Assembly: GCA_021826485.1 (NCBI GenBank)
Contig: JAKAZX010000001.1
Location: 1 to 33,293, forward strand
DNA length: 33,293 bases
Source: Pseudomonadota bacterium
Lineage (GTDB): Bacteria > Pseudomonadota > Alphaproteobacteria > Acetobacterales > Acetobacteraceae
Reading direction: 5' to 3'
Shown here one piece after another: positions 1-32,893 of the stretch. Within the stretch, counting starts at the first letter, position 1. Each line of letters begins with the position of its first letter. The notes under the pieces were generated by a model. It was not told the DNA's origin, searched no databases, and saw only the letters and a program-made list of their open reading frames with translations. The position numbers and the translations under genes are program-made.

Positions 1-1
1 A

Positions 2-2260
2 GTGATGACGCCCGAAACCGCCGCGACACTGGGGATCGCGATTTCCTATCAGCATCCGGCGCTGCTGGACGATCTTTCGGTGCTGGAGAATCTGCGCGTG
101 GCGCTGCCCGCGAAGCTCTTTGCCGGCCGCCCGGTCCGCGAAACGGCGCGGGACATCCTGCGAACCATGATGCTGGACGTGCCGCTGCGCGCCCGTGGCG
201 ATTCGCTGACGGTGGCGCAGAAGCAGTTGCTGGAAATCGCCAAGGCGCTGGCGATCCGGCCGAAAGTGCTGATCCTGGACGAGCCGACCGCCTCGCTCGA
301 CCAGGAATCGACCGACATCCTGTTCCGCCGTATCCGCGAGGTGGTGCAGGCCGGCACGTCGGTGATCTACATCACTCATCGCATGGCCGAACTACGCCAG
401 ATCGCCCAACGCGTGACGGTGCTGCGCGACGGACGCGTCCAGGGCAGCGGGATGGTGCGGGACGTGACCGACCAGCATCTGCTGGGCATGATCGTCGGCC
501 GCACCCTCGGCTCGGCGTTTCCGCCCAAGGCTCCGGCAGGGCCGGCGGACGTGGTGCTGAAAGTCACGGGACTAAGCGGCCGGCGCTTTCACGACGTCGG
601 TTTCGAGGTCGCGCGCGGGCAGATCCTCGGCGTCGCCGGGGTGGCCGGCAACGGCCAGTCCGATCTGATGCGGGCGCTGGCGGGGCTGCAACCGTCGGAC
701 GGCGCGGTCGCGCTGAACGGGAAGGTGCTGACGCCGCGCGACCTGCTGCGGCACGCCGCCTTCATGCCCTCGGACCGGCATGCCGAGGGACTCGCTGCGG
801 GACTGACGGCGCGGGAGAATGCGGCGCTGGCGTCGTTGCCGAAATTCGCGACGAACGGTCTGGTCAGCCGCACGCGGGAAGTGGCGCAGGTCGGCGCGGC
901 CTTCGGCGCGCTCGCCGTCAAGGCGTCGTCGATCGATGCGCCGGTGCTCTCGCTGTCTGGCGGCAACCAGCAGAAGGTCGTCATGGCCCGCACGCTGCTG
1001 TCGGAGCCGGGGCTGATCGTGGCCGACGAGCCGACGCAGGGCGTCGATGTGGGTGCGCGGGCAGAAATCTATCGCATCCTGCGCGAAGTCTCGGCCAAAG
1101 GCACGCCGGTGATCGTCAATTCCTCCGACGCGGCGGAGCTGGAGGGGTTGTGCGACACGGTGATCGTGCTGTCGCGGGGCCATGTCGTGGAAACCCTGGC
1201 CGGTGCCGAGGTCGTCGAGGCGCGCATCGTCGCCGCCGCGGTGGGGGCCGAGACGCAGGCCGCCCATGGCGCCCCCGCTGCCGCGCCGCGCAACGGCTGG
1301 CGCCATTTCGTGCAGGCCGACAATGCGCCGGCAATCCCGCTGACCCTGGTGATCGTGGCGCTGGCCCTGTTCGGCTACAGCCAGAACCCGAACTATCTCT
1401 CGGCGTTCAACCTCGCCAACATCCTGGCACTGGCGGCCGCGCTCGGCTTCTTCGCGCTGGGACAGACGATCCCGCTGCTGCTCGCGGGCATCGACCTTTC
1501 GGTGGGGCCGCTGGCGGGATTGCTGGTGGTGATCGCGTCGTTCTTCATCAATGACGGGCAGAGCGTGGCGACGATCGCGGCGGGCTTTGCCCTGATGGCG
1601 GGCGGCGCGCTGGCAGTCGGCACAATCAACGGGCTGCTGATCCGCTACGCGAATTTCACGCCGATCGCGGCGACGCTTGCGATGTATATCGGCCTGCAGG
1701 GATGCAGCTTCCTGCTGCGCGACGGGCCGGGAGGCTATATCAACAACGACATCGTTGCCGTCATCAATGCGCAGATCGGCCCGCTGCCGGTCGCGCTGAT
1801 CGCGCTGGTGGCAGTCGCCGTGATCGGCGAGATTGCGTTGCGGCGGCTGCGGGCCGGGTGGCGGCTACGTGCCACCGGGTCGGACGAGGACGTGGCGCGC
1901 CGCATCGGCGTGCCGGTCGATCGCACCATCGTGCTCGGCTATATCGGCGCCGCGCTGCTGACCGCCGCCGGCGCGATCATGCTGATGGCGCAGATCGGCG
2001 TGGGCGACCCGCGGCAGGGCGTGAACTATACGCTGTCGAGCATCACGGCGGTGGTGCTGGGCGGCACCAGCCTGCGCGGCGGCCGGGGAACGTTTCTGGG
2101 CACCGTGCTGGGCGCGCTGCTGCTGACGGAGGTGCTGAACATCGTCGCCTTCATCGGCCTGTCGCAGACGTATCAGTACGTCTTCCAGGGCGCACTGATC
2201 CTGACCGCGGCGGTGTTGTATTCCACCGTGCGCGGCCGCGCCGCAGCGACGGCGGCCTGA
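2..2260 (+). CDS. CUT2 (ribose/monosaccharide-type) ABC importer. One polypeptide carries two nucleotide-binding domains fused to a BPD_transp_2-type permease. The 5' end is truncated by the window edge.
   Basis: Uninterrupted ORF in frame 2 with GC-rich third positions. NBD1 shows the Walker B VLILDEPTASLD. NBD2 shows the signature LSGGNQQKVVMARTL and Walker B LIVADEPTQGVDVGA. From about nt 1330 it becomes a multi-span hydrophobic RbsC-like permease (GIDLSVGPLAGLLVV, LGGTSLRGGRGTFLGT). The first residues align roughly 75 aa into RbsA-type ATPases, so the start lies upstream of the window. Confidence 0.85.
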   Translation: MMTPETAATLGIAISYQHPALLDDLSVLENLRVALPAKLFAGRPVRETARDILRTMMLDVPLRARGDSLTVAQKQLLEIAKALAIRPKVLILDEPTASLDQESTDILFRRIREVVQAGTSVIYITHRMAELRQIAQRVTVLRDGRVQGSGMVRDVTDQHLLGMIVGRTLGSAFPPKAPAGPADVVLKVTGLSGRRFHDVGFEVARGQILGVAGVAGNGQSDLMRALAGLQPSDGAVALNGKVLTPRDLLRHAAFMPSDRHAEGLAAGLTARENAALASLPKFATNGLVSRTREVAQVGAAFGALAVKASSIDAPVLSLSGGNQQKVVMARTLLSEPGLIVADEPTQGVDVGARAEIYRILREVSAKGTPVIVNSSDAAELEGLCDTVIVLSRGHVVETLAGAEVVEARIVAAAVGAETQAAHGAPAAAPRNGWRHFVQADNAPAIPLTLVIVALALFGYSQNPNYLSAFNLANILALAAALGFFALGQTIPLLLAGIDLSVGPLAGLLVVIASFFINDGQSVATIAAGFALMAGGALAVGTINGLLIRYANFTPIAATLAMYIGLQGCSFLLRDGPGGYINNDIVAVINAQIGPLPVALIALVAVAVIGEIALRRLRAGWRLRATGSDEDVARRIGVPVDRTIVLGYIGAALLTAAGAIMLMAQIGVGDPRQGVNYTLSSITAVVLGGTSLRGGRGTFLGTVLGALLLTEVLNIVAFIGLSQTYQYVFQGALILTAAVLYSTVRGRAAATAA

Positions 2261-3997
2261 TCAGGCGGCAAGCGTATCCCGCGGCGTCGCACGCTCGCGG
2301 ATGCAGCGATACGCGGCAGCCTCGGCATCCGCCAGGGCGCGCTTCGGCGGCTTGTCTTCGAAGACGGCCGCGAACACCTCGTTGCCGAGGATGCGCTCGA
2401 TCTCGATATACTCGCGCACCGGGGGCCGGGACCAGGTGTTCAGTTCATTGCGCCGGGCCATGCGGTCCACGAAGCTGACGATCGGCGAGGAGGCGAGCGC
2501 CTCCGGATCGGCGCAGACGGAGAACCGCGGCGCGACGGGGAAGCCGTTCTTGACGTGCGCCTTCATCGCTTCGGGCGACGCCATCCAGGCGATGGCATTG
2601 ACGATCTCGCGCTTGCGGTCGGCGCTCACATAGGTCGGGATGGTCAGCAGGAAGCCCCCCACGGGCGCCGTCGCCTGGCGTCCCTTCAGCACCGGCGGCG
2701 TCAGGTAGGTCACCCGCCGCTTCACGCGCGAACTCAGCTCGTGTTCCAGCCGCGCGGCGCGCATGGTCCACGCGTAGCTCATCGCCGCGTGGCCGGACAT
2801 GAAGCAGTCCAGGTTGCGCTCGGCATCGAACGTCTCGACCCCCGGTGGCGAGACCTCGGCCAACTGGCGCATGTAGTGCAGCGCCGCCAGCCCCTCCTCG
2901 CTGTTGATGCGCAGTTGCAGGTTCTGCGTGTCCAGGGCATCCAGCCAGTTCTCCGTCCGGCGCGGCAGTTCCAGCACCGAACCCTGCGAGGAGGCCAGGA
3001 AGAACATGAAGGCGTGCGCGATGGTCATGCCCCGCGCGCCATTCCAACTGATGCCGTACTGCTGGCGCTCGGGCCGGTGCAGCGCGCGGGCGGCGGCGAT
3101 CGTCTCCTCGAACGTCCGCGGATACGCGAGTTGCGCCGCCTCGAACAGATCGCGGCGCGCGGTGAGGATTTCCACCGTGCAGTAGATGGGAATCCCGTAT
3201 TGCCGCCCGTTCCATCGCCCGGTGGCCCAGACCGAGGGATGGAAATCCAGCGGATTGATCGGGACATGCGGCAATACGCCGTCCAGAGGTGCCAGCAGCC
3301 CGGCATCGGCGAACCGGCCGAGCCAGGGCATATTGACGGCGACCACGTCATAGGCCGTTGCGGGGTCGCTCAGCGCGATTTCGGCCTGCGTCAGCAATTC
3401 CGGCAGCGGGCGCAGATCGAAGCTGCTCTTGCGGCCGATATCGTTGCGAAAGTCCGACCACATGTTGCGCATGCTGGCGAAGTAATTGTCGTCGTGCAGC
3501 AGGAAATGGAGGTTTCGGAGGGCGGCGGAGCTGATCTCGCCACCCTGCAGCGGCGCGATGATGTGGGCAGCGAAATACGAGCCGCCGAAATAATACTCGT
3601 CGGTCTCGGCACCCGATCGCAGACCGAAGGTCTTCGCGAGGTGCGCCTTCACCTTCGTCGCATAGTCGATGAACTCGTTCACCAGCCGGTCGCTGGGGAC
3701 AAGGAAGCAGGTCTTGTGCTTCGGCCCGCGCGGCACACGGTCGATCAGCCCCTTGTCGATCATCCGCGTGATCAGCCGGTTGCCGGTTCCCCAGCTTGCC
3801 TTCGACAGCTCGATCATCGTCGACATATCGACCGGCCGCTGCTGCAGATGGCTGTCGATCAGCTCCAGCACCATGTTCCAGTAGATGTCGGGCTTCGCAT
3901 CCGGGATGCCGGCATCGAAGGGCTGGCGAATCTTGCGCAGGAAGTCGATCACGCGCGACAGCTCGTGGTCGGACAGGTTTCGGGTCGATCGTGTCAT
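2261..3997 (-). CDS. Putative cytoplasmic transcriptional regulator: N-terminal MarR-like winged-helix domain fused to a family-1 extracellular-solute-binding-protein (SBP_bac_1-like) domain. No signal peptide.
   Basis: ATG at 3997-3995 is preceded by the SD GGGAGGGAGGG (4001-4010 on the + strand). The N-terminus YWNMVLELIDSHLQQRPVDMSTMIELSKASWGTGNRLITRMIDKGLIDRVPRGPKHKTCFLVPSD has the MarR wHTH pattern. The remaining ~450 aa carry sugar-SBP hallmarks (YDVVAVNMPWLGRFADAGLLAPLDG, WNGRQYGIPIYCTVEILTARRDLF). The upstream part of the 765-aa track ORF overlaps the neighbouring gene in another frame and is Arg/Gly-rich shadow sequence. Confidence 0.8.
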   Translation of the reverse strand: MTRSTRNLSDHELSRVIDFLRKIRQPFDAGIPDAKPDIYWNMVLELIDSHLQQRPVDMSTMIELSKASWGTGNRLITRMIDKGLIDRVPRGPKHKTCFLVPSDRLVNEFIDYATKVKAHLAKTFGLRSGAETDEYYFGGSYFAAHIIAPLQGGEISSAALRNLHFLLHDDNYFASMRNMWSDFRNDIGRKSSFDLRPLPELLTQAEIALSDPATAYDVVAVNMPWLGRFADAGLLAPLDGVLPHVPINPLDFHPSVWATGRWNGRQYGIPIYCTVEILTARRDLFEAAQLAYPRTFEETIAAARALHRPERQQYGISWNGARGMTIAHAFMFFLASSQGSVLELPRRTENWLDALDTQNLQLRINSEEGLAALHYMRQLAEVSPPGVETFDAERNLDCFMSGHAAMSYAWTMRAARLEHELSSRVKRRVTYLTPPVLKGRQATAPVGGFLLTIPTYVSADRKREIVNAIAWMASPEAMKAHVKNGFPVAPRFSVCADPEALASSPIVSFVDRMARRNELNTWSRPPVREYIEIERILGNEVFAAVFEDKPPKRALADAEAAAYRCIRERATPRDTLAA

Positions 3998-4023
3998 GTC
4001 CCTCCCTCCCGCGCGTGGCGGTG

Positions 4024-4941
4024 TCAGGCGTTCATGTCGAGCCCGCACGCCATGCGCATCCACTCCACCAGCGCGAAGAAGTCCTTCTCCGCATAGCCGG
4101 CATTGGCCGCCGCGGTATACTGTTGCAGGATCAGGTTGGTGGCGAACATCGGCACGTGCTGGGTGCGCCCGGCCTCGGTGATCAGGGTGAAATCCTTGCG
4201 CATCTGCACGACGGAGAAGGCGGGGCTGAAATCGCGCTGGGCGATCATGTCCTGCTTGTAGCGGATCAGCGGCGAGGCGACGGCGCTGTCGGCGATCACC
4301 GACATCATCTGCTGGTCGCTGAGACCGCCGGTCGCGCCGAGCGCCAGCGCCTCCGCAAGGATAGCGGACGTGGCGCCGACCAGCGTGTTCAGCACCAGCT
4401 TCATGTAGCGCGCCTCCTCCCCGGGACCGAGGAAGAATTTCTGGGTAGTGAGCAGGTCGAGGAACGGGGCGGCCGTTTCCCATGCCGCGGCGTCGCCGGA
4501 GGCAAGTGCCGTCAGCGATCCCGCCCGCGCCAGCGCGGTGCTGCCGGAAATCGGGCACCGCAGATAGCCCACGCCGCGGCGGGCAAGGTCGTCCGCCACG
4601 CGCCGCGATACGTCGGGGGAAACGGTGCTCATCTCGACCAGCACCGCGCGGGCGCTGACGCGGGTGAGGAAATTGCCGCGCTCCTCGGCGCTGTACACCA
4701 CCTCCTGCAGAACGGCGTCGTTCGGTATCGTGGAGAAGATCAGGCCACAGTTTGCCGCGAGGTCGCCGGCCGTGGCCGCCACCTGCGCACCGCGCGCAAC
4801 CAGGCTGGCCCGGTTCTCGGCAACTGGGTCGCAGATGGTCAGCCGATATCCCGCCTCCAGTAAGCGCGTTGCCATCGGGTTGCCCATTTTCCCTACGCCG
4901 ATCCAGCCGATGCCAGCCCCGATGCCCTCAGCCTTTGCCAC
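4024..4941 (-). CDS. NAD(P)-dependent beta-hydroxyacid dehydrogenase (3-hydroxyisobutyrate / tartronate-semialdehyde reductase family)
   Basis: Rossmann motif IGWIGVGKMGNPMATRLLEAGYRLTICD near the N-terminus and a 6PGDH-like C-terminal helical domain. The ORF opens at a TTG (5019). I prefer the GTG at 4941, which has AGGGG six nt upstream and puts the GxGxxG motif at the usual distance from the start. Start is uncertain (4941 vs 5019). Confidence 0.8.
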   Translation of the reverse strand: MAKAEGIGAGIGWIGVGKMGNPMATRLLEAGYRLTICDPVAENRASLVARGAQVAATAGDLAANCGLIFSTIPNDAVLQEVVYSAEERGNFLTRVSARAVLVEMSTVSPDVSRRVADDLARRGVGYLRCPISGSTALARAGSLTALASGDAAAWETAAPFLDLLTTQKFFLGPGEEARYMKLVLNTLVGATSAILAEALALGATGGLSDQQMMSVIADSAVASPLIRYKQDMIAQRDFSPAFSVVQMRKDFTLITEAGRTQHVPMFATNLILQQYTAAANAGYAEKDFFALVEWMRMACGLDMNA

Positions 4942-5010
4942 GACGAACCCCTGGATGATTGCCCTGCGACCCCGCAGACTACCTGCCCGCAACCCCCTGC
5001 GCGAGCGTGA

Positions 5011-5029
5011 TTCATCCAAACTGGATGAA
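5011..5029. promoter_or_regulatory. Perfect 8-N3-8 inverted repeat TTCATCCA-AAC-TGGATGAA in a divergent promoter region. Candidate operator.
   Basis: Read directly from the sequence. The arms are exact reverse complements. It lies in the locally AT-richer gap between the minus-strand dehydrogenase/wHTH-SBP pair and the plus-strand ADH operon. A second small inverted repeat AAATT-GGGG-AATTT follows at 5028-5041, and a half-site-like TTCATTCA at 5064-5071. Confidence 0.45.
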
Positions 5030-5193
5030 ATTGGGGAATTTGCACAAGACCGCTCTGCTAGAGTTCATTCATACCGAGGCTATCTCGGGGAGTGGGGGCG
5101 CCCGATCGTCCGCCGCACGGTTGAATTGCGCGTGATCGCGTCCGGCCGCCCCGCCCTGTCGGATAATGCCGCGGAACCGGAGAGGACACGACC

Positions 5194-6261
5194 ATGCGCG
5201 CCGTTCGCTTCCACGCTGCCCGGGATATCCGTGTCGAGGACGTTGCCCCGCCACCGGATGCTCTGGGCGCGGACGATGTGCTGATCGAACCGTTCTGCAC
5301 CGGCATCTGCGGCACCGACCTGCACGAATACGTCGCGGGCCCGATCGTCACCCCGGTGGCGCCCCATGTGTTCACCGGCGCCACCAACCCGCAAATTCTC
5401 GGACACGAGTTTTCCGCCCGGGTCAAGAAGGTGGGAGCGGCTGTCCGCCACGTGACGCCGGGCGACCGCATCTCCATCCAGCCGCTGCTGTTCCCGCGCG
5501 ACGACTATTACGGCAAGCGCGGGCTGTATCACCTGTCGCCGAAAATGGGCTGCGTGGGACTGAGCTGGGCCTGGGGCGGGATGGCGGAGCAGGCGGTGAT
5601 CAAGGACTACAATGCCCAGCCGATCCCCGATGCCCTGACCGATGAGCAGGCGGCGATGATCGAGCCGGCGGCGGTGGCGATGTACGGCGTGGACCGCGGG
5701 GGCGTGCAGGCCGGTTCGACCGTGCTAATCTCGGGCGTGGGGCCGATCGGCGCGCTGACGGTGCTGGCGGCCAAGGCTGCCGGAGCGGCGCTGATCATTG
5801 TGGCCGAACCGAACCCCAACCGCCGCCGCATGATCGCGGAGATTGCGCCCGGCGTCGTTACCGTCGATCCGCGGTCACAGGATTTGCAGGAGGTCGTGCG
5901 CGATCTGACCGAAGAAGGCGTGGGCGTCGATGTGGCCCTCGAATGCGTCGGGCTGGAGGCGTCGCTGAATGCATGCTCGAACGCGGTGCGGCGCCAGGGC
6001 CGGGTGGTGCAGGTTGGCCTGCACGTCAAGCGCGCCAGCATCGATGCCATGCAATGGGCGCTGAAGGACCTGACGCTGGAGGCAACCTGGTGCTACCCGG
6101 TGCAGGTCTGGCCGCGCATCGCCCGGCTGATCGCCTCCGGCGCCTTTCCGGTGGAAAAGGTGATCACCGCACGCATCGATGCGGCCGACGTCGTGGCGAA
6201 GGGGTTCGAGGCACTGCTCGACCCCGCCGGGAATCATCTCAAGATTCTCGTGCGGACCTGA
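5194..6261 (+). CDS. Zn-dependent medium-chain alcohol/polyol dehydrogenase (2,3-butanediol / sorbitol dehydrogenase-like)
   Basis: ATG preceded by GGAGAGGA. Catalytic zinc motifs CGTDLHEY and GHEFSARV. Rossmann motif SGVGPIGALTVLAAKAAGA. Confidence 0.9.
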   Translation: MRAVRFHAARDIRVEDVAPPPDALGADDVLIEPFCTGICGTDLHEYVAGPIVTPVAPHVFTGATNPQILGHEFSARVKKVGAAVRHVTPGDRISIQPLLFPRDDYYGKRGLYHLSPKMGCVGLSWAWGGMAEQAVIKDYNAQPIPDALTDEQAAMIEPAAVAMYGVDRGGVQAGSTVLISGVGPIGALTVLAAKAAGAALIIVAEPNPNRRRMIAEIAPGVVTVDPRSQDLQEVVRDLTEEGVGVDVALECVGLEASLNACSNAVRRQGRVVQVGLHVKRASIDAMQWALKDLTLEATWCYPVQVWPRIARLIASGAFPVEKVITARIDAADVVAKGFEALLDPAGNHLKILVRT

Positions 6262-6417
6262 GCTTCTGGCGACCGGTGCCGCTTCCGGGGCGGACCGCGT
6301 CGTGCCGCACGGCGGCGGATTGACCATCGGGTTGGAAATCTGCATGGCACAGCGCAGTTTATGCGCCGATGGAGCGGGCCTGGGCCGGGATGCGGCCGGA
6401 ATGAGAAGGGACCATTG

Positions 6418-7257
6418 ATGAGGTACTTCACTGAGGCGAATTCGATCGAGGTGGTGAATGCCCGTATCGACGATTCCGCATCGCCGCGACTCCGCCAGGT
6501 GATGACCGCGCTGGTCCGGCACCTCCACGATTTCGTCCGGGAGGTTGAGCTGACGCAGGAGGAGTGGGACATCGCCATCGATTTCCTGACCAGGACCGGC
6601 CAGATGTGCAGCGAGCAGCGGCAGGAGTTCATCCTTCTGTCCGACGTCCTCGGCGTCTCCATGCTGACCGATGCGATCAACAACCGCCGCCCGCCGGGCG
6701 CCACCGAAAACACGGTCTTCGGACCGTTCCACGTCGCCGATGCGCCGATGCGGCAGATGGGCGACAGCATCACCCTGGACGGCAAGGGCGAGACCTGCCT
6801 CTATGTCGGCCGGGTGCTCGATCTGGACGGCAATCCGGTCGCGGGGGCGCATATCGACGTATGGTCGGACAATGCCGAGGGCTTTTACTCCGTCCAGCAG
6901 CCCGGTATCCAGGAGAAGTGGAACAACCGCGGCATTTTCGTGACCGGGGCGGACGGGAAGTACGAATTCATCGGCATCAAGCCCGTCAGCTACCCGATCC
7001 CGGACGACGGCCCGGTGGGCAAGCTGCTTGCGGCACTGGGACGCCATCCGCACCGTCCGGCGCACATGCACTTCCTGGTGACGGCGCCCGGCTATCAGCG
7101 GCTCGTCACGCATACGTTCGTTGGGGACGATCCGTGGATCGAGTCCGATGCGGTCTTCGGCGTGAAATCGACCTTGATCGCGCCGTTCGAGAAGGTGCGC
7201 GACGGCCGGACGGCGTGGCGTTCCCACTATGACTTCGTGCTGACACCCCTGGGATAG
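6418..7257 (+). CDS. Intradiol ring-cleavage dioxygenase, hydroxyquinol 1,2-dioxygenase / catechol 1,2-dioxygenase family
   Basis: ATG at 6418 follows GAGAAGGG. The N-terminal dioxygenase_N-type helix region is SPRLRQVMTALVRHLHDFVREVELTQEEWDIAIDFL. The C-terminal core carries the His-x-His iron ligands in HRPAHMHFLVTAPGY and Tyr-containing segments (NAEGFYSV, KPVSYPIP). Confidence 0.88.
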   Translation: MRYFTEANSIEVVNARIDDSASPRLRQVMTALVRHLHDFVREVELTQEEWDIAIDFLTRTGQMCSEQRQEFILLSDVLGVSMLTDAINNRRPPGATENTVFGPFHVADAPMRQMGDSITLDGKGETCLYVGRVLDLDGNPVAGAHIDVWSDNAEGFYSVQQPGIQEKWNNRGIFVTGADGKYEFIGIKPVSYPIPDDGPVGKLLAALGRHPHRPAHMHFLVTAPGYQRLVTHTFVGDDPWIESDAVFGVKSTLIAPFEKVRDGRTAWRSHYDFVLTPLG

Positions 7258-7363
7258 TCGTCCCGCTGCGGCCGGCGGATCGCGACATTGGGTGAAGCTG
7301 GCGCCGGCCGCCGGCGTCAATGATGGCGCCGCGTGATCTGTGGCAGGGAGGTTCCAGGGAGCG

Positions 7364-8317
7364 ATGCCAATCCGCGTCGGTGTCGTCGGGACGGCCTATT
7401 GGGCCCGCGAAGTGCACGTGCCGGGCCTGTTGCAGGCGGGCGGCATGGACCTCATCGGCGTATGGGGGCGCAACGCGACGATCGCCGGCGAGGTGGCGGA
7501 GCGCTACGCCATTCCCAGCTTCCCGACTTTCGAGGCAATGCTGTCCGCAGTCGACGCGCTGACCATAGCGGTCCCGCCGGAGGTGCAGGCCGAACTCGGC
7601 ATGCGCGCGGCGGCGGCCGGCAAGCACGTGATCTTCGAGAAGCCGTTGGCAACGAGTGCGGCCGCGGCACAGGCCATTGCCGACGAAATGGCGCGCCAGC
7701 GGCGCACAGGGCTGGTGTTCTTCACCCGCCGCTTCGACCCGGCGACGGCTGCCGCGATCGATGCCGCGCGGGGTCGTGCATGGCAGCGCGCGAATGTCGT
7801 GGTGCATTCGTCGGCACTGACCGGTGATACCCCGTACATCGATTCGGCCTGGCGGAAGCAGCGTGGCGCACTGTGGGACATCGGTCCGCATGTGCTGTCC
7901 ATGCTGATCCCGTTGCTCGGACCTGTCGATCATGTCTCCGCCGAGGTTCATCCGGACGGTGGCTGCATGCTGCGCACCGTGCATCGGGATGGTGCCAGCG
8001 CCCAGGCATCCCTGACGCTGCGCGCGCAACCGGGCACCGAACAGACCCGCTACCACTTCGTCTCGCCCACGGACGAGTTGGCATTTCCCGAGGGCGAGAG
8101 CGACCGTGCGGCGACGTTCCGCCGGGCCGCTGAGGTGCTTGCCGCGATGATCGCGGCCGGTGAGGTCACCCATGATTGCGATGTGCGGTTCGGCGCCACC
8201 GTCGTCAGAGTGCTGGAAGCGGCAGAGGAAAGTGCAAACCGGGGCGCGCCGGTTGCAATCGGGGCCGATCAGGCGGCTACCATGTCCCGCGGAACTGCGG
8301 CGGACGCTTTTCGATGA
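7364..8317 (+). CDS. Gfo/Idh/MocA family NAD(P)-dependent oxidoreductase
   Basis: N-terminal Rossmann IRVGVVGTAYWAREVH and the family EKP motif in KHVIFEKPLATS. ATG at 7364 is preferred (GGGAGG 12 nt upstream). A GTG at 7340 is an alternative. The 3' end overlaps the convergent crotonase gene. Confidence 0.85.
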   Translation: MPIRVGVVGTAYWAREVHVPGLLQAGGMDLIGVWGRNATIAGEVAERYAIPSFPTFEAMLSAVDALTIAVPPEVQAELGMRAAAAGKHVIFEKPLATSAAAAQAIADEMARQRRTGLVFFTRRFDPATAAAIDAARGRAWQRANVVVHSSALTGDTPYIDSAWRKQRGALWDIGPHVLSMLIPLLGPVDHVSAEVHPDGGCMLRTVHRDGASAQASLTLRAQPGTEQTRYHFVSPTDELAFPEGESDRAATFRRAAEVLAAMIAAGEVTHDCDVRFGATVVRVLEAAEESANRGAPVAIGADQAATMSRGTAADAFR

Positions 8318-9077
8318 AGGCGGTCATGCCCTCCCGGCGATCCGGCGACTCCGCGTTGCGCCAGATCGAGTCGCGCTCATAGGCGATGCCGTTTTCCAGC
8401 GTTGCGCCGACCGCGACGCGAATGCATGCTTTGGTCAGCCGCACGGCGATCGGCGCACGCGTGGCGATCAGCGCGGCGACTTCCACGGCACGCCGCACCG
8501 TGTCGGCCGGATCGCAGATTTCGACGACATAGCCGAGCTGCCGGGCGGTCTCGGCGTCGATCGGGTTGCCGGTGAACAGCATGTATGCCGCGAACGCGGC
8601 GCCGACCTTGCGCGGCAGGCGCTGCGTTCCGCCATCGCCGGCCATCCCGCCGATCTTCACTTCCGGCTGGCCGAACATCGCGTTGGTGCCGGCGATCACG
8701 AAGTCGCAGACCATCGCGAGTTCATTGCCCGCACCGAAGGCGATACCGTTCACCGCAGCGATAAGCGGCTTCGGGAACTGCTCGATGCGCCGCCACGCTG
8801 CCACCCGGCGCGGGTTGTTGGACGTTCCGGCGGTGCCACGGGCCACCATCTCGCGGATGTCGGCGCCAGCCGCGAAGGCGTCGATGCCCCCGGTGAGGAT
8901 CACGCAGCGAATGGTATCGTCTTCGGCGGCCGCATCCAGCAGACGCCCGAGTTCGATGATCATCGAGCTATGAAGCGCGTTCTTCTTCTCGTCGCGGGCG
9001 AACCGGATCAGCAGGACATGGGCCGCCGCCCGTTCCGAAAGCACGTGGCCGCTCAGATCCTCCTCGTCACTTGCCAT
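8277..9077 (-). CDS. Enoyl-CoA hydratase/isomerase (crotonase) family protein
   Basis: Crotonase oxyanion-hole segments ILTGGIDAFAAGADIREM and AAVNGIAFGAGNELAMVCDFVIAG. Starts 5 nt after the stop of the upstream CoA-transferase. Confidence 0.9.
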   Translation of the reverse strand: MASDEEDLSGHVLSERAAAHVLLIRFARDEKKNALHSSMIIELGRLLDAAAEDDTIRCVILTGGIDAFAAGADIREMVARGTAGTSNNPRRVAAWRRIEQFPKPLIAAVNGIAFGAGNELAMVCDFVIAGTNAMFGQPEVKIGGMAGDGGTQRLPRKVGAAFAAYMLFTGNPIDAETARQLGYVVEICDPADTVRRAVEVAALIATRAPIAVRLTKACIRVAVGATLENGIAYERDSIWRNAESPDRREGMTAFIEKRPPQFRGTW

Positions 9078-30529: not shown

Positions 30530-32893
30530 TCAGGACAGCACGCCGAGCGCCCGCGCCGCGTTGATCGCCTCCCGCCGCCGCCGGCAACCGAGTTTCCGGT
30601 AGGCGTTGCCGAGATGGTATTTCACCGTCGCCTCGGTGACGCCGAGCGCCTTGGCGATGAACTTGTTGGACCCGCCCTCGGCGATCATCAGCAGGACTTT
30701 CGACTCCCGCCTTGTCAGCCCGTTCTTCACCCCCGGCGGCGCCGCGGCGAGGCCGGCGAGGCCGAGCCGGCGCAGGATGGCGCGAGCGGGGGACGAGGCC
30801 TGCACGAAATCCCGCAGCCGGCGGTTGCCGAGCAGTTCGGCGAGGAAATATCGTTCCTCCGCCAGCGGCGCCACCGCGCCCAGCCGCGCCGCCTGTTCCA
30901 GCGCCGACAGCAGCAGCGCCCGGCAGCGCGACGGATCGCGCCGGTATCGGCTTACATAGGCAAGCCAGAGCTGGACTGCAATCTTCTGCCGGCCGGTGAG
31001 TTGCAGATTGGCGTGAATCTGCTCCAGCCGTTCGGCCAGCAGCGGGCGCGCCGGCGCCTCGAACGCCGACTGGCGCAGGCAGGCCAGCGCCAGCGCCACC
31101 TCGTCGCGCGCGTGCAGGCGGCCCAGGTCGCCCTGCGCCAGCACCGCCTCATGATCCGCCGCGCCCGCCAGCACCCGCAGCTTCTCCGCCGCCTCCTGCC
31201 AGCGGTTGCCGCTTTGCAGGATGATCGCCTCGCGGATGTTGATCATCGCTGCGAACTGGTGGGTGTGGATCTGATAGACCCGCCAGCGGTCGAGATAGCT
31301 GCGCGCCGCGAGCGTCGAGAAATGCTCGCTCAGCGCCTGGCTGCCGTAGTGCAGCGCGAGGTCGATCACCGTCGGCCAGATCTCGGCATGCGAGAAATCG
31401 TCGAACTCGGTGCTGAGGAAGCGTGCCAGCGGCTGCACCCGCCCGGCTTCGTAATCGACGCAGGCCTGCAGCAGCGCCAGCAGGCGGCTGTCGTTCGGGC
31501 TCGCATAGCCGACGGCGGCGAGATCGGCGGCGGCGGCATCGGCGAAGCGCCGCGCCTGCTGCGCGTCGCCCTGCAGCAGCCGCATCACCGACTGGTGCAG
31601 CCGGATGTAGAATTGCAGCATCGGCATGTCGGCGGCGGCATAGTGTTCCCAGGCGCGGATCGCCACGTCCTCGGCCTCGGCGAAGCGGCGGCGGCGGATG
31701 AAGAACTCCAGCATGGAGTTGTAGAACGAGCCGCGTTGCAGATGCGCGTCCGCCGGCAGTTCGCGGATCAGGCCGAAGATGCGCTCGAACAGGTCGTCGC
31801 TGACCAGCACGTCCTCGTAGATCAGCATCAGCACGCGGAAGAAGCGGAACTCCCGCGAATAGCGTCCGTCGGTGTCGAACACCGAATCCGCCGCCAGCGC
31901 CCGGTTGCCGAAATGGTCGGCGACGAGCTGGCGGGTGCGCGGCAGGTCGCCCCGCTTCAGCGCCTGCAGGCACCGCGCCAGCACCAGCGTCTCGTGGCGC
32001 TCGGCATAGTCGGGCGGGAACCCGGCGAGGATGCGCGCGAAGGCGCCGCCGCCGCACCGGTAGAAATAGAAGAACCCGTGCTGCTCCTTCAGGATCGCGA
32101 GCGCGGCATCGAGATGCCCGGCGCCCTGCAGGGCGGCGATCGCGGCGAGGGTGCGGCCCTGCGCGCGCAGCGCCGCGGCCAACGCCGCGGCGGTTTCTGC
32201 ATCGGCGATCCGGCGCGCGAAGTCCGCCGCATGGCCGCGCGCCAGATGCGGGCGCAGCGCCTCCGCCCGCAGTGCCGAAGGGGTGCCGGCGCGGATGGCC
32301 GGCGCCAGCGGCCCGGCATCGGCCAGCGACAGCGGTTCACCCTCGATGATCCGGCCGAGGGTGACGAAGTCCGCTGCCGGCAGCGCCGCCATCCAGTCCT
32401 CCGCCAGCACCGCCTCCAGCCGGGCGGCGTCGCGTCCCGTCTCGACGAAGCCGAGCAGCAACGGCCAGCCGCCGCTCGCGTCCATGATCCGCTCGGCGCG
32501 CCGGCGCGGCAGGCGGGCGGCGAGTTCGGGGGCGGTGAACAGCAGCGCGGCGGTGTCGATGACATGGGCGCGGCCATAGGCCACCGCGCGGTCGAGGCCG
32601 GGCAGGACCGCCTGCGGCCGTTTGGCCAGGATCAGGCGGTCCGCGCCGGCCATGAAGCGTTCCGGCAGCGGCCCCGGCGCCGCGTGCGGCGGCAGGTCCC
32701 ACAGCAGCGGCGCGCCGTCGCCCGGCGGGGCGGGCGGCGCGGTGCCCAGATGCACCTCCCGGCCGAGCCGGGCGGCGAGCTGGCGGAGCAGCACCGACTT
32801 GCCGCAGCCGGCTGGCGCCTCGATCAGCACGATCGGCTCCGGCCGCGCCAGGATGCGGGCGAGCAGGCCGTCGCGCGGCAGCTCGGCGGCCAT
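30530..32893 (-). CDS. Large ATP-binding LuxR-family (LAL / MalT-like) transcriptional regulator
   Basis: N-terminal P-loop IEAPAGCGKSVLL, a long helical repeat-like middle region, and a C-terminal LuxR HTH LTRRESKVLLMIAEGGSNKFIAKALGVTEATVKYHLGNAYRKLG. Confidence 0.88.
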   Translation of the reverse strand: MAAELPRDGLLARILARPEPIVLIEAPAGCGKSVLLRQLAARLGREVHLGTAPPAPPGDGAPLLWDLPPHAAPGPLPERFMAGADRLILAKRPQAVLPGLDRAVAYGRAHVIDTAALLFTAPELAARLPRRRAERIMDASGGWPLLLGFVETGRDAARLEAVLAEDWMAALPAADFVTLGRIIEGEPLSLADAGPLAPAIRAGTPSALRAEALRPHLARGHAADFARRIADAETAAALAAALRAQGRTLAAIAALQGAGHLDAALAILKEQHGFFYFYRCGGGAFARILAGFPPDYAERHETLVLARCLQALKRGDLPRTRQLVADHFGNRALAADSVFDTDGRYSREFRFFRVLMLIYEDVLVSDDLFERIFGLIRELPADAHLQRGSFYNSMLEFFIRRRRFAEAEDVAIRAWEHYAAADMPMLQFYIRLHQSVMRLLQGDAQQARRFADAAAADLAAVGYASPNDSRLLALLQACVDYEAGRVQPLARFLSTEFDDFSHAEIWPTVIDLALHYGSQALSEHFSTLAARSYLDRWRVYQIHTHQFAAMINIREAIILQSGNRWQEAAEKLRVLAGAADHEAVLAQGDLGRLHARDEVALALACLRQSAFEAPARPLLAERLEQIHANLQLTGRQKIAVQLWLAYVSRYRRDPSRCRALLLSALEQAARLGAVAPLAEERYFLAELLGNRRLRDFVQASSPARAILRRLGLAGLAAAPPGVKNGLTRRESKVLLMIAEGGSNKFIAKALGVTEATVKYHLGNAYRKLGCRRRREAINAARALGVLS

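What the first reader, a model, noticed from the sequence alone, without database searches (positions are those of the whole stretch)
2261..3997. Cytoplasmic fusion of a MarR-like winged helix to a full-size family-1 ABC solute-binding protein
The protein starts directly with a wHTH domain (...STMIELSKASWGTGNRLITRMIDKGLIDRVPRGPKHKTCFLVPSD). There is no signal peptide or lipobox, so it must be cytoplasmic. The rest is a ~450-aa domain with the sequence character of periplasmic sugar SBPs.

LacI- and LysR-type regulators are known to use periplasmic-binding-protein folds as sensors. A MarR-type DNA-binding head attached to a complete SBP_bac_1-type module is not an architecture I know to be characterised.

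It is co-transcribed behind a beta-hydroxyacid dehydrogenase (26-nt gap, strong SD). It abuts a CUT2 sugar ABC gene tail to tail and faces the ADH/dioxygenase operon. That makes it a plausible one-component sensor for a transported sugar or polyol-like ligand.
Basis: partly seen in the sequence, partly recalled or inferred. Interest (0 to 1): 0.65.

Follow-up and report, generated by a model that had tools for sequence, protein, structure and literature searches.

The report
Cytoplasmic wHTH–sugar-binding-protein fusion regulator
This gene, labelled in databases as an exported sugar-transport binding protein, most likely encodes a cytoplasmic transcription factor that joins a MarR-like DNA-binding head to a maltose-binding-protein-type sensor, and it belongs to a conserved regulator family I could not find described.

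Summary
Window 2261-3997 (-) encodes a 578-aa protein with no signal peptide, lipobox or membrane segment.

- **Head.** Residues 10-124 fold with high confidence (pLDDT 91) into a winged helix. All 50 best PDB structural matches are MarR-family regulators.
- **Sensor.** Residues ~160-570 are a complete SBP_bac_1 domain. The closest structure is the Agrobacterium SBP 5IAI (TM 0.88).
- **Conservation.** The fusion recurs in more than 100 alphaproteobacterial sequences, named by their sources as extracellular or sugar-transport solute-binding proteins, or as hypothetical. The head was detected only in front of an SBP_bac_1 domain.
- **Context.** In about 80 genomes the gene sits in one conserved cluster of several dehydrogenases, a YCII protein and a CUT2 ABC importer that has its own binding protein. 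It is the only regulator-like gene always present.
- **Operator.** It lies upstream of the operon in 79 of 87 loci. A relaxed pattern gives 87 matches, against 6-11 after shuffling.

Best reading: a dimeric one-component regulator, probably a ligand-released repressor, of this sugar- or cyclitol-like catabolic cluster. It is a new variant of the known "HTH plus periplasmic-binding-protein fold" theme. The ligand, DNA binding and the sign of regulation are untested.

The parts
2261..3997 (-). Gene for the 578-aa wHTH-SBP fusion protein (predicted one-component regulator)
   Evidence: ORF and translation. More than 100 full-length homologues at 60-100% identity. Pfam SBP_bac_1 and SBP_bac_8.
3626..3970 (-). 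N-terminal MarR-like winged-helix domain (aa 10-124): helices 10-30, 38-51, 58-64, 69-81 (putative recognition helix, invariant T71 and R74), beta wing 85-89 and 97-101 (invariant R90 and T96; K95 nearly invariant), helix 103-124
   Evidence: AF2 domain model pLDDT 90.9. All 50 top Foldseek PDB hits are MarR-family regulators, best E 1.3e-4. Weak MarR, MarR_2, HTH_24 and HTH_IclR Pfam hits in this protein and in relatives. Invariant residues.
3518..3628 (-). Conserved connector (aa 124-160), including the near-invariant motif FGLRSG.ET.EYYFGGSYFA..II.P; structure not confidently predicted
   Evidence: Invariant columns in alignment A1. pLDDT 29-52 in the full-length model. The YYFGG motif is kept in distant subfamilies.
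2288..3517 (-). Complete SBP_bac_1 (MalE-type, class II periplasmic-binding-protein fold) sensor domain, aa ~161-570
   Evidence: Pfam 83.9 bits. PDB sequence match to 5iai_A, E 3.4e-33, aa 168-563. Foldseek 5iai E 1.8e-26, target-normalised TM 0.88, followed by MalE3, 4rya and the trehalose/maltose-binding protein.
3998..4023 (-). 26-nt intercistronic gap with the Shine-Dalgarno GGGAGGGAGGGA (4010-3999); implies co-transcription with the upstream dehydrogenase gene
   Evidence: Sequence read directly. The dehydrogenase-regulator gene pair is conserved in most related loci.
4024..5019 (-). NAD_binding_2 / beta-hydroxyacid dehydrogenase gene, first gene of the two-gene operon. The true start is probably GTG at 4941, not the TTG at 5019 that lies inside the palindrome.
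   Evidence: Pfam NAD_binding_2 and NAD_binding_11. Sub-threshold L-threonate and tartronate-semialdehyde dehydrogenase-like NCBIfam hits. The start is inferred from the sequence.
5011..5029 (.). Predicted operator: perfect palindrome TTCATCCA-AAC-TGGATGAA in the divergent promoter region
   Evidence: Only match in the 33-kb window, with 0.08 expected by chance. Exact inverted repeat. A homologous site with at most 2 mismatches lies 53-135 bp upstream of the operon in 79 of 87 loci, giving 65 distinct 25-mers. Across 1.53 Mb there are 87 matches, 37 exact, against 6-11 and 0 exact after block shuffling.
4951..4958 (.). Extra copy of the half-site (CTGGATGA), 70 nt from the palindrome and just upstream of the likely GTG start of the dehydrogenase gene; significance uncertain
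   Evidence: Direct repeat D2. Not tested for conservation.
5194..7257 (+). Divergently transcribed predicted target genes: Zn-dependent alcohol dehydrogenase (5194-6261) and intradiol ring-cleavage dioxygenase (6361-7257)
   Evidence: Pfam. The ADH355 orthologue is divergent from the regulator operon in most loci.
2..2260 (+). 3' part of a convergent CUT2-type ABC importer gene (two ATPase domains fused to a BPD_transp_2 permease). In related loci it is the last gene of the PRISE-YCII-GFO-ADH-permease-Peripla_BP_4-ABC operon, whose start lies beyond the window's left end.
   Evidence: Pfam. Synteny. In related loci with this split layout, a second operator copy lies 216-315 bp upstream of the PRISE gene.

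Best explanation
The gene encodes a soluble cytoplasmic one-component transcription factor. An N-terminal MarR-like winged-helix domain is joined by a conserved ~35-residue connector to a complete MalE-type (SBP_bac_1) solute-binding domain, which acts as the ligand sensor.

Inferred mechanism:
- The protein dimerises through the long first and last helices of the head domain.
- Its two recognition helices read the two half-sites of the palindrome AAATTTATCCR-N3-YGGATAAATT, whose centres are 11 bp apart, about one helical turn.
- In the window this site (5011-5029) lies between the regulator's own operon (dehydrogenase plus regulator) and the divergent ADH/dioxygenase genes.
- In genomes with the same split layout, a second copy lies upstream of the PRISE-YCII-GFO-ADH-CUT2 importer operon.
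- Binding of a sugar-, polyol- or cyclitol-like ligand (the imported substrate or an early intermediate) closes the two lobes of the SBP domain. The connector transmits this to the heads and changes their DNA affinity.
- By analogy with MarR-family proteins, the default guess is repression relieved by ligand.

What is shown: the domain composition, the lack of export signals, conservation of the fusion, its fixed association with the cluster, and a conserved palindrome at promoter positions. What is inferred: DNA binding by this protein, dimerisation, the ligand class, and the sign of regulation.
For: **Domains.** Pfam SBP_bac_1 scores 83.9 bits. PDB sequence and fold matches are to sugar SBPs, with 5IAI at target-normalised TM 0.88. 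The N-domain AF2 model has pLDDT 90.9 with MarR topology, and all 50 top Foldseek hits are MarR-family regulators, several solved with DNA. Relatives give MarR_2, HTH_24 and HTH_IclR hits, one of them above its gathering score. The weakest listed hits include a multi-wHTH MarR/TrmB-type protein.

**No export.** There is no hydrophobic N-terminus, lipobox or membrane segment.

**Fusion is conserved.** All 39 aligned homologues carry both domains, and many residues in the recognition helix and wing are invariant. Among 1.84 billion representative proteins, the head was detected only in front of an SBP_bac_1 domain; shorter hits that I checked are truncated copies of the same architecture.

**Not a transporter component.** No BPD_transp_1 (CUT1) permease lies nearby. 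The neighbouring CUT2 importer has its own Peripla_BP_4 binding protein.

**Regulon evidence.** It is the only regulator-like gene present throughout the cluster in about 80 genomes. The palindrome sits at a conserved position in 79 of 87 loci. About 75 of the 87 pattern matches lie in the promoter regions upstream of the regulator operon or the PRISE/importer operon. Shuffled controls give 6-11 matches.

**Distant subfamilies keep the geometry.** Members with 26-32% head identity have palindromes of the same layout upstream of their own genes: ATCCA-N3-TGGAT in L090, and ATATTCA-N3-TGAATAT before both paralogues in L092.
Against: - No experiment has been done. No member of the family is characterised in the literature I could search.
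- The head does not reach the Pfam MarR cut-offs (14 bits against 24.6 and 27). Foldseek TM-scores are moderate (0.45-0.55) and rmsd is high.
- The MarR C-terminal dimerisation helix alpha-6 is absent.
- Dimerisation was not modelled.
- The connector (aa 124-160) is highly conserved but poorly predicted, so the coupling mechanism is unknown.
- No sigma-70-like promoter was detected, so repressor and activator roles cannot be told apart.
- The related loci are phylogenetically linked, so site counts overstate independence.
- An unlinked transcription factor could in principle bind the palindrome.
- A LysR gene is adjacent in a few loci.
Confidence: 0.75

Rival explanations
1. It is an ordinary exported solute-binding protein of an ABC importer, as databases annotate it. 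On this view the N-terminal 'domain' results from a mis-called start or is an unusual pro-region.
For: Public sources that name it call it 'extracellular solute-binding protein' or 'multiple sugar transport system substrate-binding protein'; a few say hypothetical. The C-terminal 410 aa are a bona fide SBP_bac_1 fold. An ABC importer gene is adjacent.
Against: No signal peptide, lipobox or internal start followed by a hydrophobic stretch was found. The first 125 aa are conserved at protein level in all homologues and fold confidently into a wHTH. The adjacent importer is CUT2-type with its own Peripla_BP_4 protein, and no CUT1 permeases are nearby. A strong Shine-Dalgarno precedes the ATG at 3997.
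Confidence: 0.02
2. It is a cytoplasmic ligand sensor or chaperone that does not bind DNA itself. The wHTH-like head would mediate protein-protein contacts, for example with the importer's ATPase, with a pathway enzyme, or with a separate regulator. This would resemble AmiC-AmiR or NasS-NasT, where a cytoplasmic binding-protein homologue controls a partner. Another factor would bind the palindrome.
For: Cytoplasmic PBP-fold sensors that work through partners are established (AmiC, NasS; my own knowledge). Winged helices can serve as protein-interaction modules. The head misses the Pfam MarR thresholds. A LysR-type regulator is adjacent in some loci.
Against: No partner regulator is conserved with it, and the LysR gene is absent from most loci. 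The putative recognition helix and wing carry invariant polar and basic residues (T71, N73, R74, R90, T96; K95 nearly invariant). A palindrome with dimeric-wHTH geometry tracks the gene even in distant subfamilies that sit in other genomic contexts.
Confidence: 0.12
3. It is a transcription factor as proposed, but it acts as a ligand-dependent activator, in the manner of LysR-type regulators, rather than as a ligand-released repressor.
For: The operator centre lies 53-135 bp (median 105) upstream of the first aligned codon, and 216-315 bp upstream of the PRISE gene. These distances would also suit an upstream activator site. LysR-type regulators, the closest architectural analogues (wHTH plus class II PBP fold), are commonly activators bound in divergent promoter regions (my own knowledge).
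Against: Most MarR-fold regulators are repressors (my own knowledge). Promoters and transcription starts are unmapped, so nothing here discriminates between the two.
Confidence: 0.3
4. It is an SBP-fold enzyme acting in the pathway, as thiaminase I or cyclohexadienyl dehydratase are, with the wHTH as an accessory domain.
For: SBP folds have been recruited as enzymes. Thiaminase I appears among the weak PDB sequence hits. The gene is embedded among catabolic enzymes.
Against: The best structural and sequence matches are all ligand-binding transport SBPs. An enzyme role would not explain the conserved DNA-binding-type head or the co-conserved palindrome.
Confidence: 0.03

Closest known systems
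MarR-family transcription factors (e.g. Rv1404, HpaR, ZitR, SlyA, MepR, MexR)
   Same: The head domain has the same winged-helix fold and helix order, alpha1-alpha2-alpha3-alpha4(recognition)-beta wing-alpha5. A palindromic site lies in the regulator's own divergent promoter region.
   Different: It does not reach the Pfam MarR or MarR_2 cut-offs. It lacks helix alpha-6. MarR proteins are ~140-aa single-domain proteins that bind ligand within the dimer interface; here a separate ~410-aa SBP domain is appended as the presumed sensor.
LysR-type transcriptional regulators (LTTRs)
   Same: Same logic and order of parts: an N-terminal winged helix, a connector, and a C-terminal class II periplasmic-binding-protein-fold effector domain. 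LTTR genes often sit in divergent promoter regions next to the catabolic genes they control (my own knowledge).
   Different: There is no HTH_1 or LysR_substrate homology. The sensor is a full-size MalE-type SBP_bac_1 domain (~410 aa), not the ~200-aa LysR effector domain. The oligomeric state is unknown.
LacI/GalR and XylR(AraC)-type sugar regulators
   Same: Cytoplasmic one-component sugar sensors built from an HTH plus a periplasmic-binding-protein fold, regulating sugar transport and catabolism genes (my own knowledge).
   Different: Those use the class I fold (Peripla_BP_1/3/4) with a LacI or AraC HTH. This protein uses the class II SBP_bac_1 fold with a MarR-like wHTH.
ABC-importer solute-binding proteins of the CUT1 family (closest solved: 5IAI Arad_9887, 4RYA AVI_3567, T. 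maritima MalE3, T. litoralis TMBP)
   Same: The sensor domain is homologous, with 26% identity and target-normalised TM 0.88 to 5IAI.
   Different: It is not exported, it carries a DNA-binding head, and it is not encoded with CUT1 permeases.
Cytoplasmic binding-protein-like sensors AmiC (amidase operon) and NasS (nitrate assimilation)
   Same: A transporter-type binding-protein fold is reused inside the cell as a small-molecule sensor for gene regulation (my own knowledge).
   Different: AmiC and NasS are separate polypeptides that act on partner antiterminators (AmiR, NasT). Here the sensor is covalently fused to a DNA-binding domain.
Other HTH + class II PBP fusions known only as Pfam architectures (YhfZ: HTH_41 + YhfZ_C; HTH_17 + PBP_like PF12727)
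   Same: An HTH is fused to a class II binding-protein fold in a cytoplasmic protein. This is recalled from memory as a lead and was not tested here.
   Different: Both domains belong to different families. As far as I know, those proteins are also largely uncharacterised.

Membership tests
SBP_bac_1 (PF01547) extracellular solute-binding proteins of CUT1 ABC importers | Profile-HMM match above the curated cut-off | tested here: met
   83.9 bits against a cut-off of 26, aa 202-479; SBP_bac_8 scores 64 bits.
SBP_bac_1 (PF01547) extracellular solute-binding proteins of CUT1 ABC importers | Two-lobed class II binding-protein fold similar to solved sugar SBPs | tested here: met
   Foldseek match to 5iai, E 1.8e-26, target-normalised TM 0.88; 958 PDB matches at E<=0.001, and the 50 listed are all solute-binding proteins.
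SBP_bac_1 (PF01547) extracellular solute-binding proteins of CUT1 ABC importers | N-terminal signal peptide or lipoprotein signal for export | tested here: not met
   Hydropathy maximum 0.37 (19-aa window) in the first 60 aa, no lipobox, and no hydrophobic stretch after any internal Met. SignalP itself was not available.
SBP_bac_1 (PF01547) extracellular solute-binding proteins of CUT1 ABC importers | Encoded with cognate BPD_transp_1 permeases and a MalK-type ATPase | tested here: not met
   In the window and in the eight close-homologue loci with domain calls, the nearby transporter is CUT2 (BPD_transp_2) with its own Peripla_BP_4 protein; tblastn shows the same cluster in about 80 more. One distant member (L091) does follow a CUT1 operon, but that operon has its own 419-aa SBP, which is unrelated in sequence.
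MarR family transcriptional regulators (PF01047 / PF12802) | Profile-HMM match above the curated cut-off | tested here: not met
   MarR scores 14.1 bits (cut-off 24.6) and MarR_2 scores 14.3 bits (cut-off 27). Relatives reach 22-24 bits for MarR_2, and one passes HTH_24.
MarR family transcriptional regulators (PF01047 / PF12802) | Winged helix-turn-helix fold with flanking long helices | tested here: met
   AF2 pLDDT 90.9, with helices 10-30, 38-51, 58-64, 69-81, wing 85-101 and helix 103-124. All 50 top Foldseek hits are MarR-family proteins, with probability 1.00 and TM 0.43-0.56.
MarR family transcriptional regulators (PF01047 / PF12802) | Homodimer formed by the N- and C-terminal helices (alpha1, alpha5, alpha6) | not testable with these tools
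   No multimer prediction was available. Alpha-6 is absent from the model, and a conserved connector follows alpha-5.
MarR family transcriptional regulators (PF01047 / PF12802) | Binds a (pseudo)palindromic operator, commonly in its own or a divergent promoter | tested here: inconclusive
   A conserved 8-3-8 palindrome lies in the expected place in 79 of 87 loci. Binding by this protein has not been demonstrated.
LysR-type transcriptional regulators | HTH_1 (PF00126) N-terminal domain and LysR_substrate (PF03466) effector domain | tested here: not met
   Neither family appears in the Pfam scans. It is an architectural analogue only.
LacI/GalR regulators | LacI HTH (PF00356) plus a class I Peripla_BP_1/3 domain | tested here: not met
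   Not found in the Pfam scans.

The most novel reading that the evidence does not exclude
This is the founding example of an unrecognised family of bacterial one-component transcription factors in which a full MalE-type transporter binding protein serves as the cytoplasmic sensor, fused to a divergent MarR-like head. The family has several subfamilies in different sugar-catabolic loci and is annotated as extracellular transport proteins. Here it controls a conserved, unnamed pathway that may funnel an imported sugar- or cyclitol-like compound to hydroxyquinol ring cleavage.
Probability: 0.55. Interest if true: 0.72.

Novelty: new variant of a known kind. Interest (0 to 1): 0.64.

Why it matters
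- **Annotation.** More than a hundred database entries that their sources call extracellular or sugar-transport binding proteins are probably transcription factors. SBP censuses and transporter reconstructions would miscount them.
- **Biology.** It adds a new combination, a MarR-like head with an SBP_bac_1 sensor, to the known ways in which bacteria recycle binding-protein folds as cytoplasmic sensors. It also comes with a ready-made predicted operator and regulon to test.
- **Engineering.** MalE-type SBPs are favoured scaffolds for engineered biosensors. A natural protein that couples SBP closure to DNA binding could serve as a template for turning SBPs of known specificity into transcriptional switches.
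- **Metabolism.** The regulator marks a widely conserved alphaproteobacterial gene cluster whose substrate is unknown. Identifying its ligand would be a direct route to the pathway's substrate.

Tried and rejected
- **Sequence-only assignment of the head.** Pfam on the whole protein and on aa 1-138, NCBIfam, and a profile search of PDB sequences gave only sub-threshold hits. The case rests on structure.
- **The 765-aa ORF starting at 4558.** Rejected. It overlaps the dehydrogenase gene in another frame, and homologues begin at the ATG.
- **A hidden signal peptide behind an internal start.** None found.
- **Stand-alone or differently fused copies of the head.** The shorter and intermediate-length hits that I scanned with Pfam are mostly truncated copies of the same fusion; two gave no Pfam hit, and one is a read-through with the upstream dehydrogenase. 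The shortest hits were not examined.
- **Sensor domain as a recent duplicate of a neighbouring transporter SBP.** In L091 the two share no detectable similarity.
- **Promoter and terminator scans** of 2100-5300 found nothing.
- **Rfam scan** of 1-9000 found nothing, so there is no sign of a riboswitch alternative.
- **Naming the pathway through NCBIfam.** Hits were sub-threshold only: IolM-, IolG-, L-threonate dehydrogenase- and catechol dioxygenase-like.
- **Seven literature searches** for a characterised wHTH-SBP_bac_1 regulator, plus a search for 'Arad_9887', found nothing relevant. A 2021 review of SBPs in signalling covers only extracytoplasmic SBPs. Two further pathway searches failed on term syntax.
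Full report
**1. The observation**

The minus-strand ORF 2261..3997 starts at ATG 3997 and encodes 578 aa. The stop codon of the upstream NAD_binding_2 dehydrogenase ORF is at 4026-4024, so the gap is 26 nt. That gap contains GGGAGGGAGGGA at 4010-3999.

The list of ORFs also shows a 765-aa version beginning at 4558. It overlaps the dehydrogenase gene in another frame, and none of the homologues extends that far, so I discard it.

The gene ends back to back with the + strand gene 2..2260. That gene is the 3' part of a CUT2-type ABC gene carrying two ATPase domains fused to a BPD_transp_2 permease. On the other side, the dehydrogenase-regulator pair diverges from a Zn-dependent alcohol dehydrogenase (5194-6261) and an intradiol dioxygenase (6361-7257).

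**2. The two domains**

*Sensor domain.* Pfam places SBP_bac_1 (83.9 bits, cut-off 26) and SBP_bac_8 on aa 202-505. The best solved relative by sequence is 5IAI, an Agrobacterium radiobacter ABC solute-binding protein (E 3.4e-33, aa 168-563). Trehalose/maltose- and sorbitol/mannitol-type binding proteins follow.

An AlphaFold2 model built on 39 homologues has mean pLDDT 78. Its C-terminal part superposes on 5IAI with target-normalised TM 0.88, and all 50 listed matches are solute-binding proteins. The sensor module is therefore a complete MalE-type (class II) binding-protein fold of about 410 residues.

*Head domain.* At sequence level the first 138 residues give only sub-threshold MarR and MarR_2 matches (E about 0.05), and NCBIfam gives nothing. 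A PDB profile search gives marginal TubR and MarR hits (E 0.1-0.4).

Modelled alone on 26 sequences, the domain reaches pLDDT 90.9. It has helices at 10-30, 38-51, 58-64 and 69-81, a beta hairpin at 85-89 and 97-101, and a long helix at 103-124. All 50 best Foldseek matches in the PDB are MarR-family regulators. They include Rv1404, a Variovorax MarR, HpaR and ZitR bound to DNA, SlyA, MepR and MexR. Probability is 1.00, best E is 1.3e-4, and TM is 0.43-0.56.

More distant relatives of the protein give MarR_2, HTH_IclR and HTH_24 hits at the same position, one of them above the gathering score. The head is thus a divergent MarR-like winged helix. It lacks the last MarR helix (alpha-6). In its place comes a connector (aa 124-160) that is almost invariant in the family (FGLRSG.ET.EYYFGGSYFA..II.P) yet is predicted with pLDDT below 40.

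**3. Location**

There is no hydrophobic N-terminal segment. The Kyte-Doolittle 19-residue maximum is 0.37 in the first 60 residues and 1.25 anywhere in the protein. There is no lipobox, and no internal Met is followed by a signal-like stretch. SignalP was not available. Within that limit, the protein is cytoplasmic.

**4. The fusion is a conserved family, not an accident**

A search of 5.8 billion proteins returned more than 100 full-length homologues, 566-617 aa long and 60-100% identical. They come from Acetobacteraceae-like, Rhizobiales and Rhodobacterales genomes and metagenomes. Sources that name them call them 'extracellular solute-binding protein' or 'multiple sugar transport system substrate-binding protein'; two entries are named hypothetical.

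In a 39-sequence alignment both domains are present throughout. Residues in the putative recognition helix (T71, N73, R74) and wing (R90, T96) are invariant, and K95 is nearly so.

I then searched the head alone (aa 1-140) against 1.84 billion cluster representatives. This found 127 proteins at E<=0.001. The long ones are nearly all 540-630 aa with the head at the N-terminus, and the ten scanned all carry SBP_bac_1. Of ten intermediate-length hits scanned, six are truncated copies of the same architecture and one is a read-through with the upstream dehydrogenase. One very weak hit is a multi-winged-helix MarR/TrmB-type protein, one shows only a weak SBP_bac_8 hit, and two gave no Pfam hit. Within HMMER's reach, then, this head occurs only in front of an SBP_bac_1 domain.

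**5. Genomic context**

I looked at six homologues in long contigs, then at 80 genome loci retrieved with the head-domain alignment and mapped by tblastn. They show one arrangement again and again.

- The regulator gene usually follows the NAD_binding_2 dehydrogenase gene.
- It lies beside the following set of genes: a 355-aa Zn-ADH, a PRISE-type SDR, a YCII protein, a GFO_IDH_MocA oxidoreductase, a 326-aa Zn-ADH, and a CUT2 ABC importer.
- The importer consists of a permease, a Peripla_BP_4 binding protein and a fused ATPase-permease.
- An intradiol dioxygenase is often present as well.

In most Rhodobacterales loci the whole set diverges from the regulator operon. In the window and its closest relatives, the ADH and dioxygenase diverge while the remaining genes converge on the regulator. 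The window itself begins inside the last gene of that convergent operon.

No CUT1 permeases are nearby, and the importer has its own binding protein, so the SBP_bac_1 protein is not needed for transport. No other regulator is conserved with the cluster. A LysR gene is adjacent in only a few loci.

**6. A conserved operator**

- Inspection of the equivalent intergenic regions of seven loci showed the same element.
- With the relaxed pattern TTNNTCCRNNNYGGANNAA and at most 1 mismatch, the 1.53 Mb of collected loci hold 87 matches, 37 of them exact. Block-shuffled sequence gives 6-11 matches and no exact ones.
- About 75 of the 87 lie in promoter regions: upstream of the dehydrogenase-regulator operon or, where the cluster is split, 216-315 bp upstream of the PRISE gene that heads the importer operon.
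- In 79 of 87 loci, a site with at most 2 mismatches lies 53-135 bp (median 105) upstream of the first aligned codon of the regulator's operon.
- The 65 distinct 25-mers give the consensus AAATTTATCC(A/G)-N3-(C/T)GGATAAATT.
- The half-site centres are 11 bp apart, which fits a dimeric winged-helix protein.

The loci are related, so these counts are not independent events. However, the surrounding intergenic sequence is otherwise diverged.

**7. Distant subfamilies**

Members with only 26-32% identity in the head sit in other or modified contexts.

- P0165 (L090) lies next to a similar cluster that also has Fe-ADH and dioxygenase genes. It has AAATCCA-cct-TGGATAT about 40 bp upstream of its start.
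- In an AT-rich genome (L092), two paralogues flank a CUT2 importer. Each has ATATTCA-N3-TGAATAT upstream.
- P0179 (L091) follows a CUT1 ABC operon and a GMC oxidoreductase. Its sensor domain is not detectably similar to that operon's own SBP.

Palindromes of the same geometry, seen in two of these three contexts, link the motif to the protein family rather than to one pathway. T71 and R74 remain invariant across these subfamilies.

**8. Most likely function and mechanism**

Taken together, the protein is best explained as a one-component transcription factor.

- The MarR-like heads of a dimer read the palindrome in the divergent promoter region. In the split layout they would also read a second site before the importer and catabolic operon.
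- The SBP domain binds the imported compound or an early intermediate and closes.
- The invariant connector transmits this change to the heads.

By analogy with MarR proteins, I favour repression relieved by ligand. An LTTR-like activator mode is a real alternative, because promoters could not be located. No riboswitch or other Rfam element offers a competing control mechanism.

The ligand is unknown. The nearest solved SBPs belong to the sugar and polyol group. From memory, and not checked here, 5IAI and 4RYA were solved with polyols. The cluster enzymes have only sub-threshold resemblance to inositol and inosose dehydrogenases, L-threonate dehydrogenase and catechol-type dioxygenases.

The recurring intradiol dioxygenase and YCII protein, and in L090 an Fe-ADH of the maleylacetate-reductase type, suggest a speculative idea. 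A sugar- or cyclitol-like substrate might be converted to hydroxyquinol and then cleaved.

**9. Comparison with known systems**

In function, the protein works like the large class of regulators that reuse binding-protein folds as cytoplasmic sensors: LysR-type (winged helix plus class II fold), LacI/GalR and XylR (HTH plus class I fold), and the unfused sensors AmiC and NasS.

It is not a member of any of them. It has no HTH_1/LysR_substrate or LacI/Peripla_BP domains. It fails the MarR HMM cut-offs while sharing the fold. It meets the sequence and fold criteria of SBP_bac_1 but fails the export and CUT1-operon criteria that define a transport SBP.

The literature I could search revealed no characterised winged-helix-SBP_bac_1 regulator. 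A dedicated 2021 review of SBPs in signalling treats only extracytoplasmic SBPs acting on membrane receptors. A 2022 census notes only generically that SBP profiles also hit sensor domains of regulators and some cytosolic proteins. Absence from an open-access library is not proof of novelty.

**10. Verdict**

This is a real, conserved and mis-annotated fusion, with good comparative evidence for a cognate operator and regulon.

It is a new variant of a well-known design principle rather than a new principle. DNA binding, the ligand, the oligomeric state and the sign of regulation remain to be shown.

| Claim | Confidence |
|---|---|
| Cytoplasmic wHTH-SBP fusion | about 0.95 |
| It is the regulator that binds the palindrome | about 0.75 |
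| Ligand-released repression specifically | about 0.5 |

Noticed in passing
window 2-2260 (+); L001 11737-14262 and equivalents: The CUT2-type importer's ATPase (two ABC_tran domains) is fused to a BPD_transp_2 permease in a single ~830-840 aa polypeptide. This fusion is conserved in most of the related loci.
   Followed up: partly
window 4024-8317 plus the region beyond the left end; L001 5889-19858: This is a conserved catabolic cluster that NCBIfam cannot name. It holds two Zn-ADHs, a PRISE-type SDR, a YCII protein, a GFO_IDH_MocA oxidoreductase, a beta-hydroxyacid dehydrogenase and a CUT2 importer, often with an intradiol dioxygenase and, in L090, an Fe-ADH. A possible route runs from a sugar- or cyclitol-like compound to hydroxyquinol cleavage; this is speculative.
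   Followed up: partly
window 3518-3628 (-), aa 124-160 of the protein: The connector between the two domains is nearly invariant across the family (EYYFGGSYFA motif, kept even in distant subfamilies) but is predicted with pLDDT below 40. It may become ordered only in the dimer or on DNA, or it may be the signal-transmitting element.
   Followed up: no
window 4951-4958: An extra copy of the operator half-site (CTGGATGA) lies 70 nt from the palindrome, 10-17 nt upstream of the likely GTG start (4941) of the dehydrogenase gene. It could be chance or an auxiliary site.
   Followed up: no
L092 5996-7696 and 13587-15281: An AT-rich genome carries two paralogues of the fusion protein flanking one CUT2 importer. 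Each has its own ATATTCA-N3-TGAATAT palindrome upstream.
   Followed up: partly
P0195 (508 aa): One database protein joins the C-terminal part of the NAD_binding_2 dehydrogenase to the fusion protein. It is probably a read-through or frameshift artefact across the short intercistronic gap.
   Followed up: no
window 8160-33293: The rest of the window is ordinary metabolic and transport content: a family III CoA-transferase, a GMC oxidoreductase, a LIV-type ABC system, a DHDPS-family protein, another ADH and GFO pair, two S-Me-THD (DUF917-like) genes, hydantoinase A, an Opp/Dpp-type ABC operon, and a 787-aa LuxR/GerE-type regulator at 30530-32893. GC rises to 0.76 at 32-33 kb.
   Followed up: no
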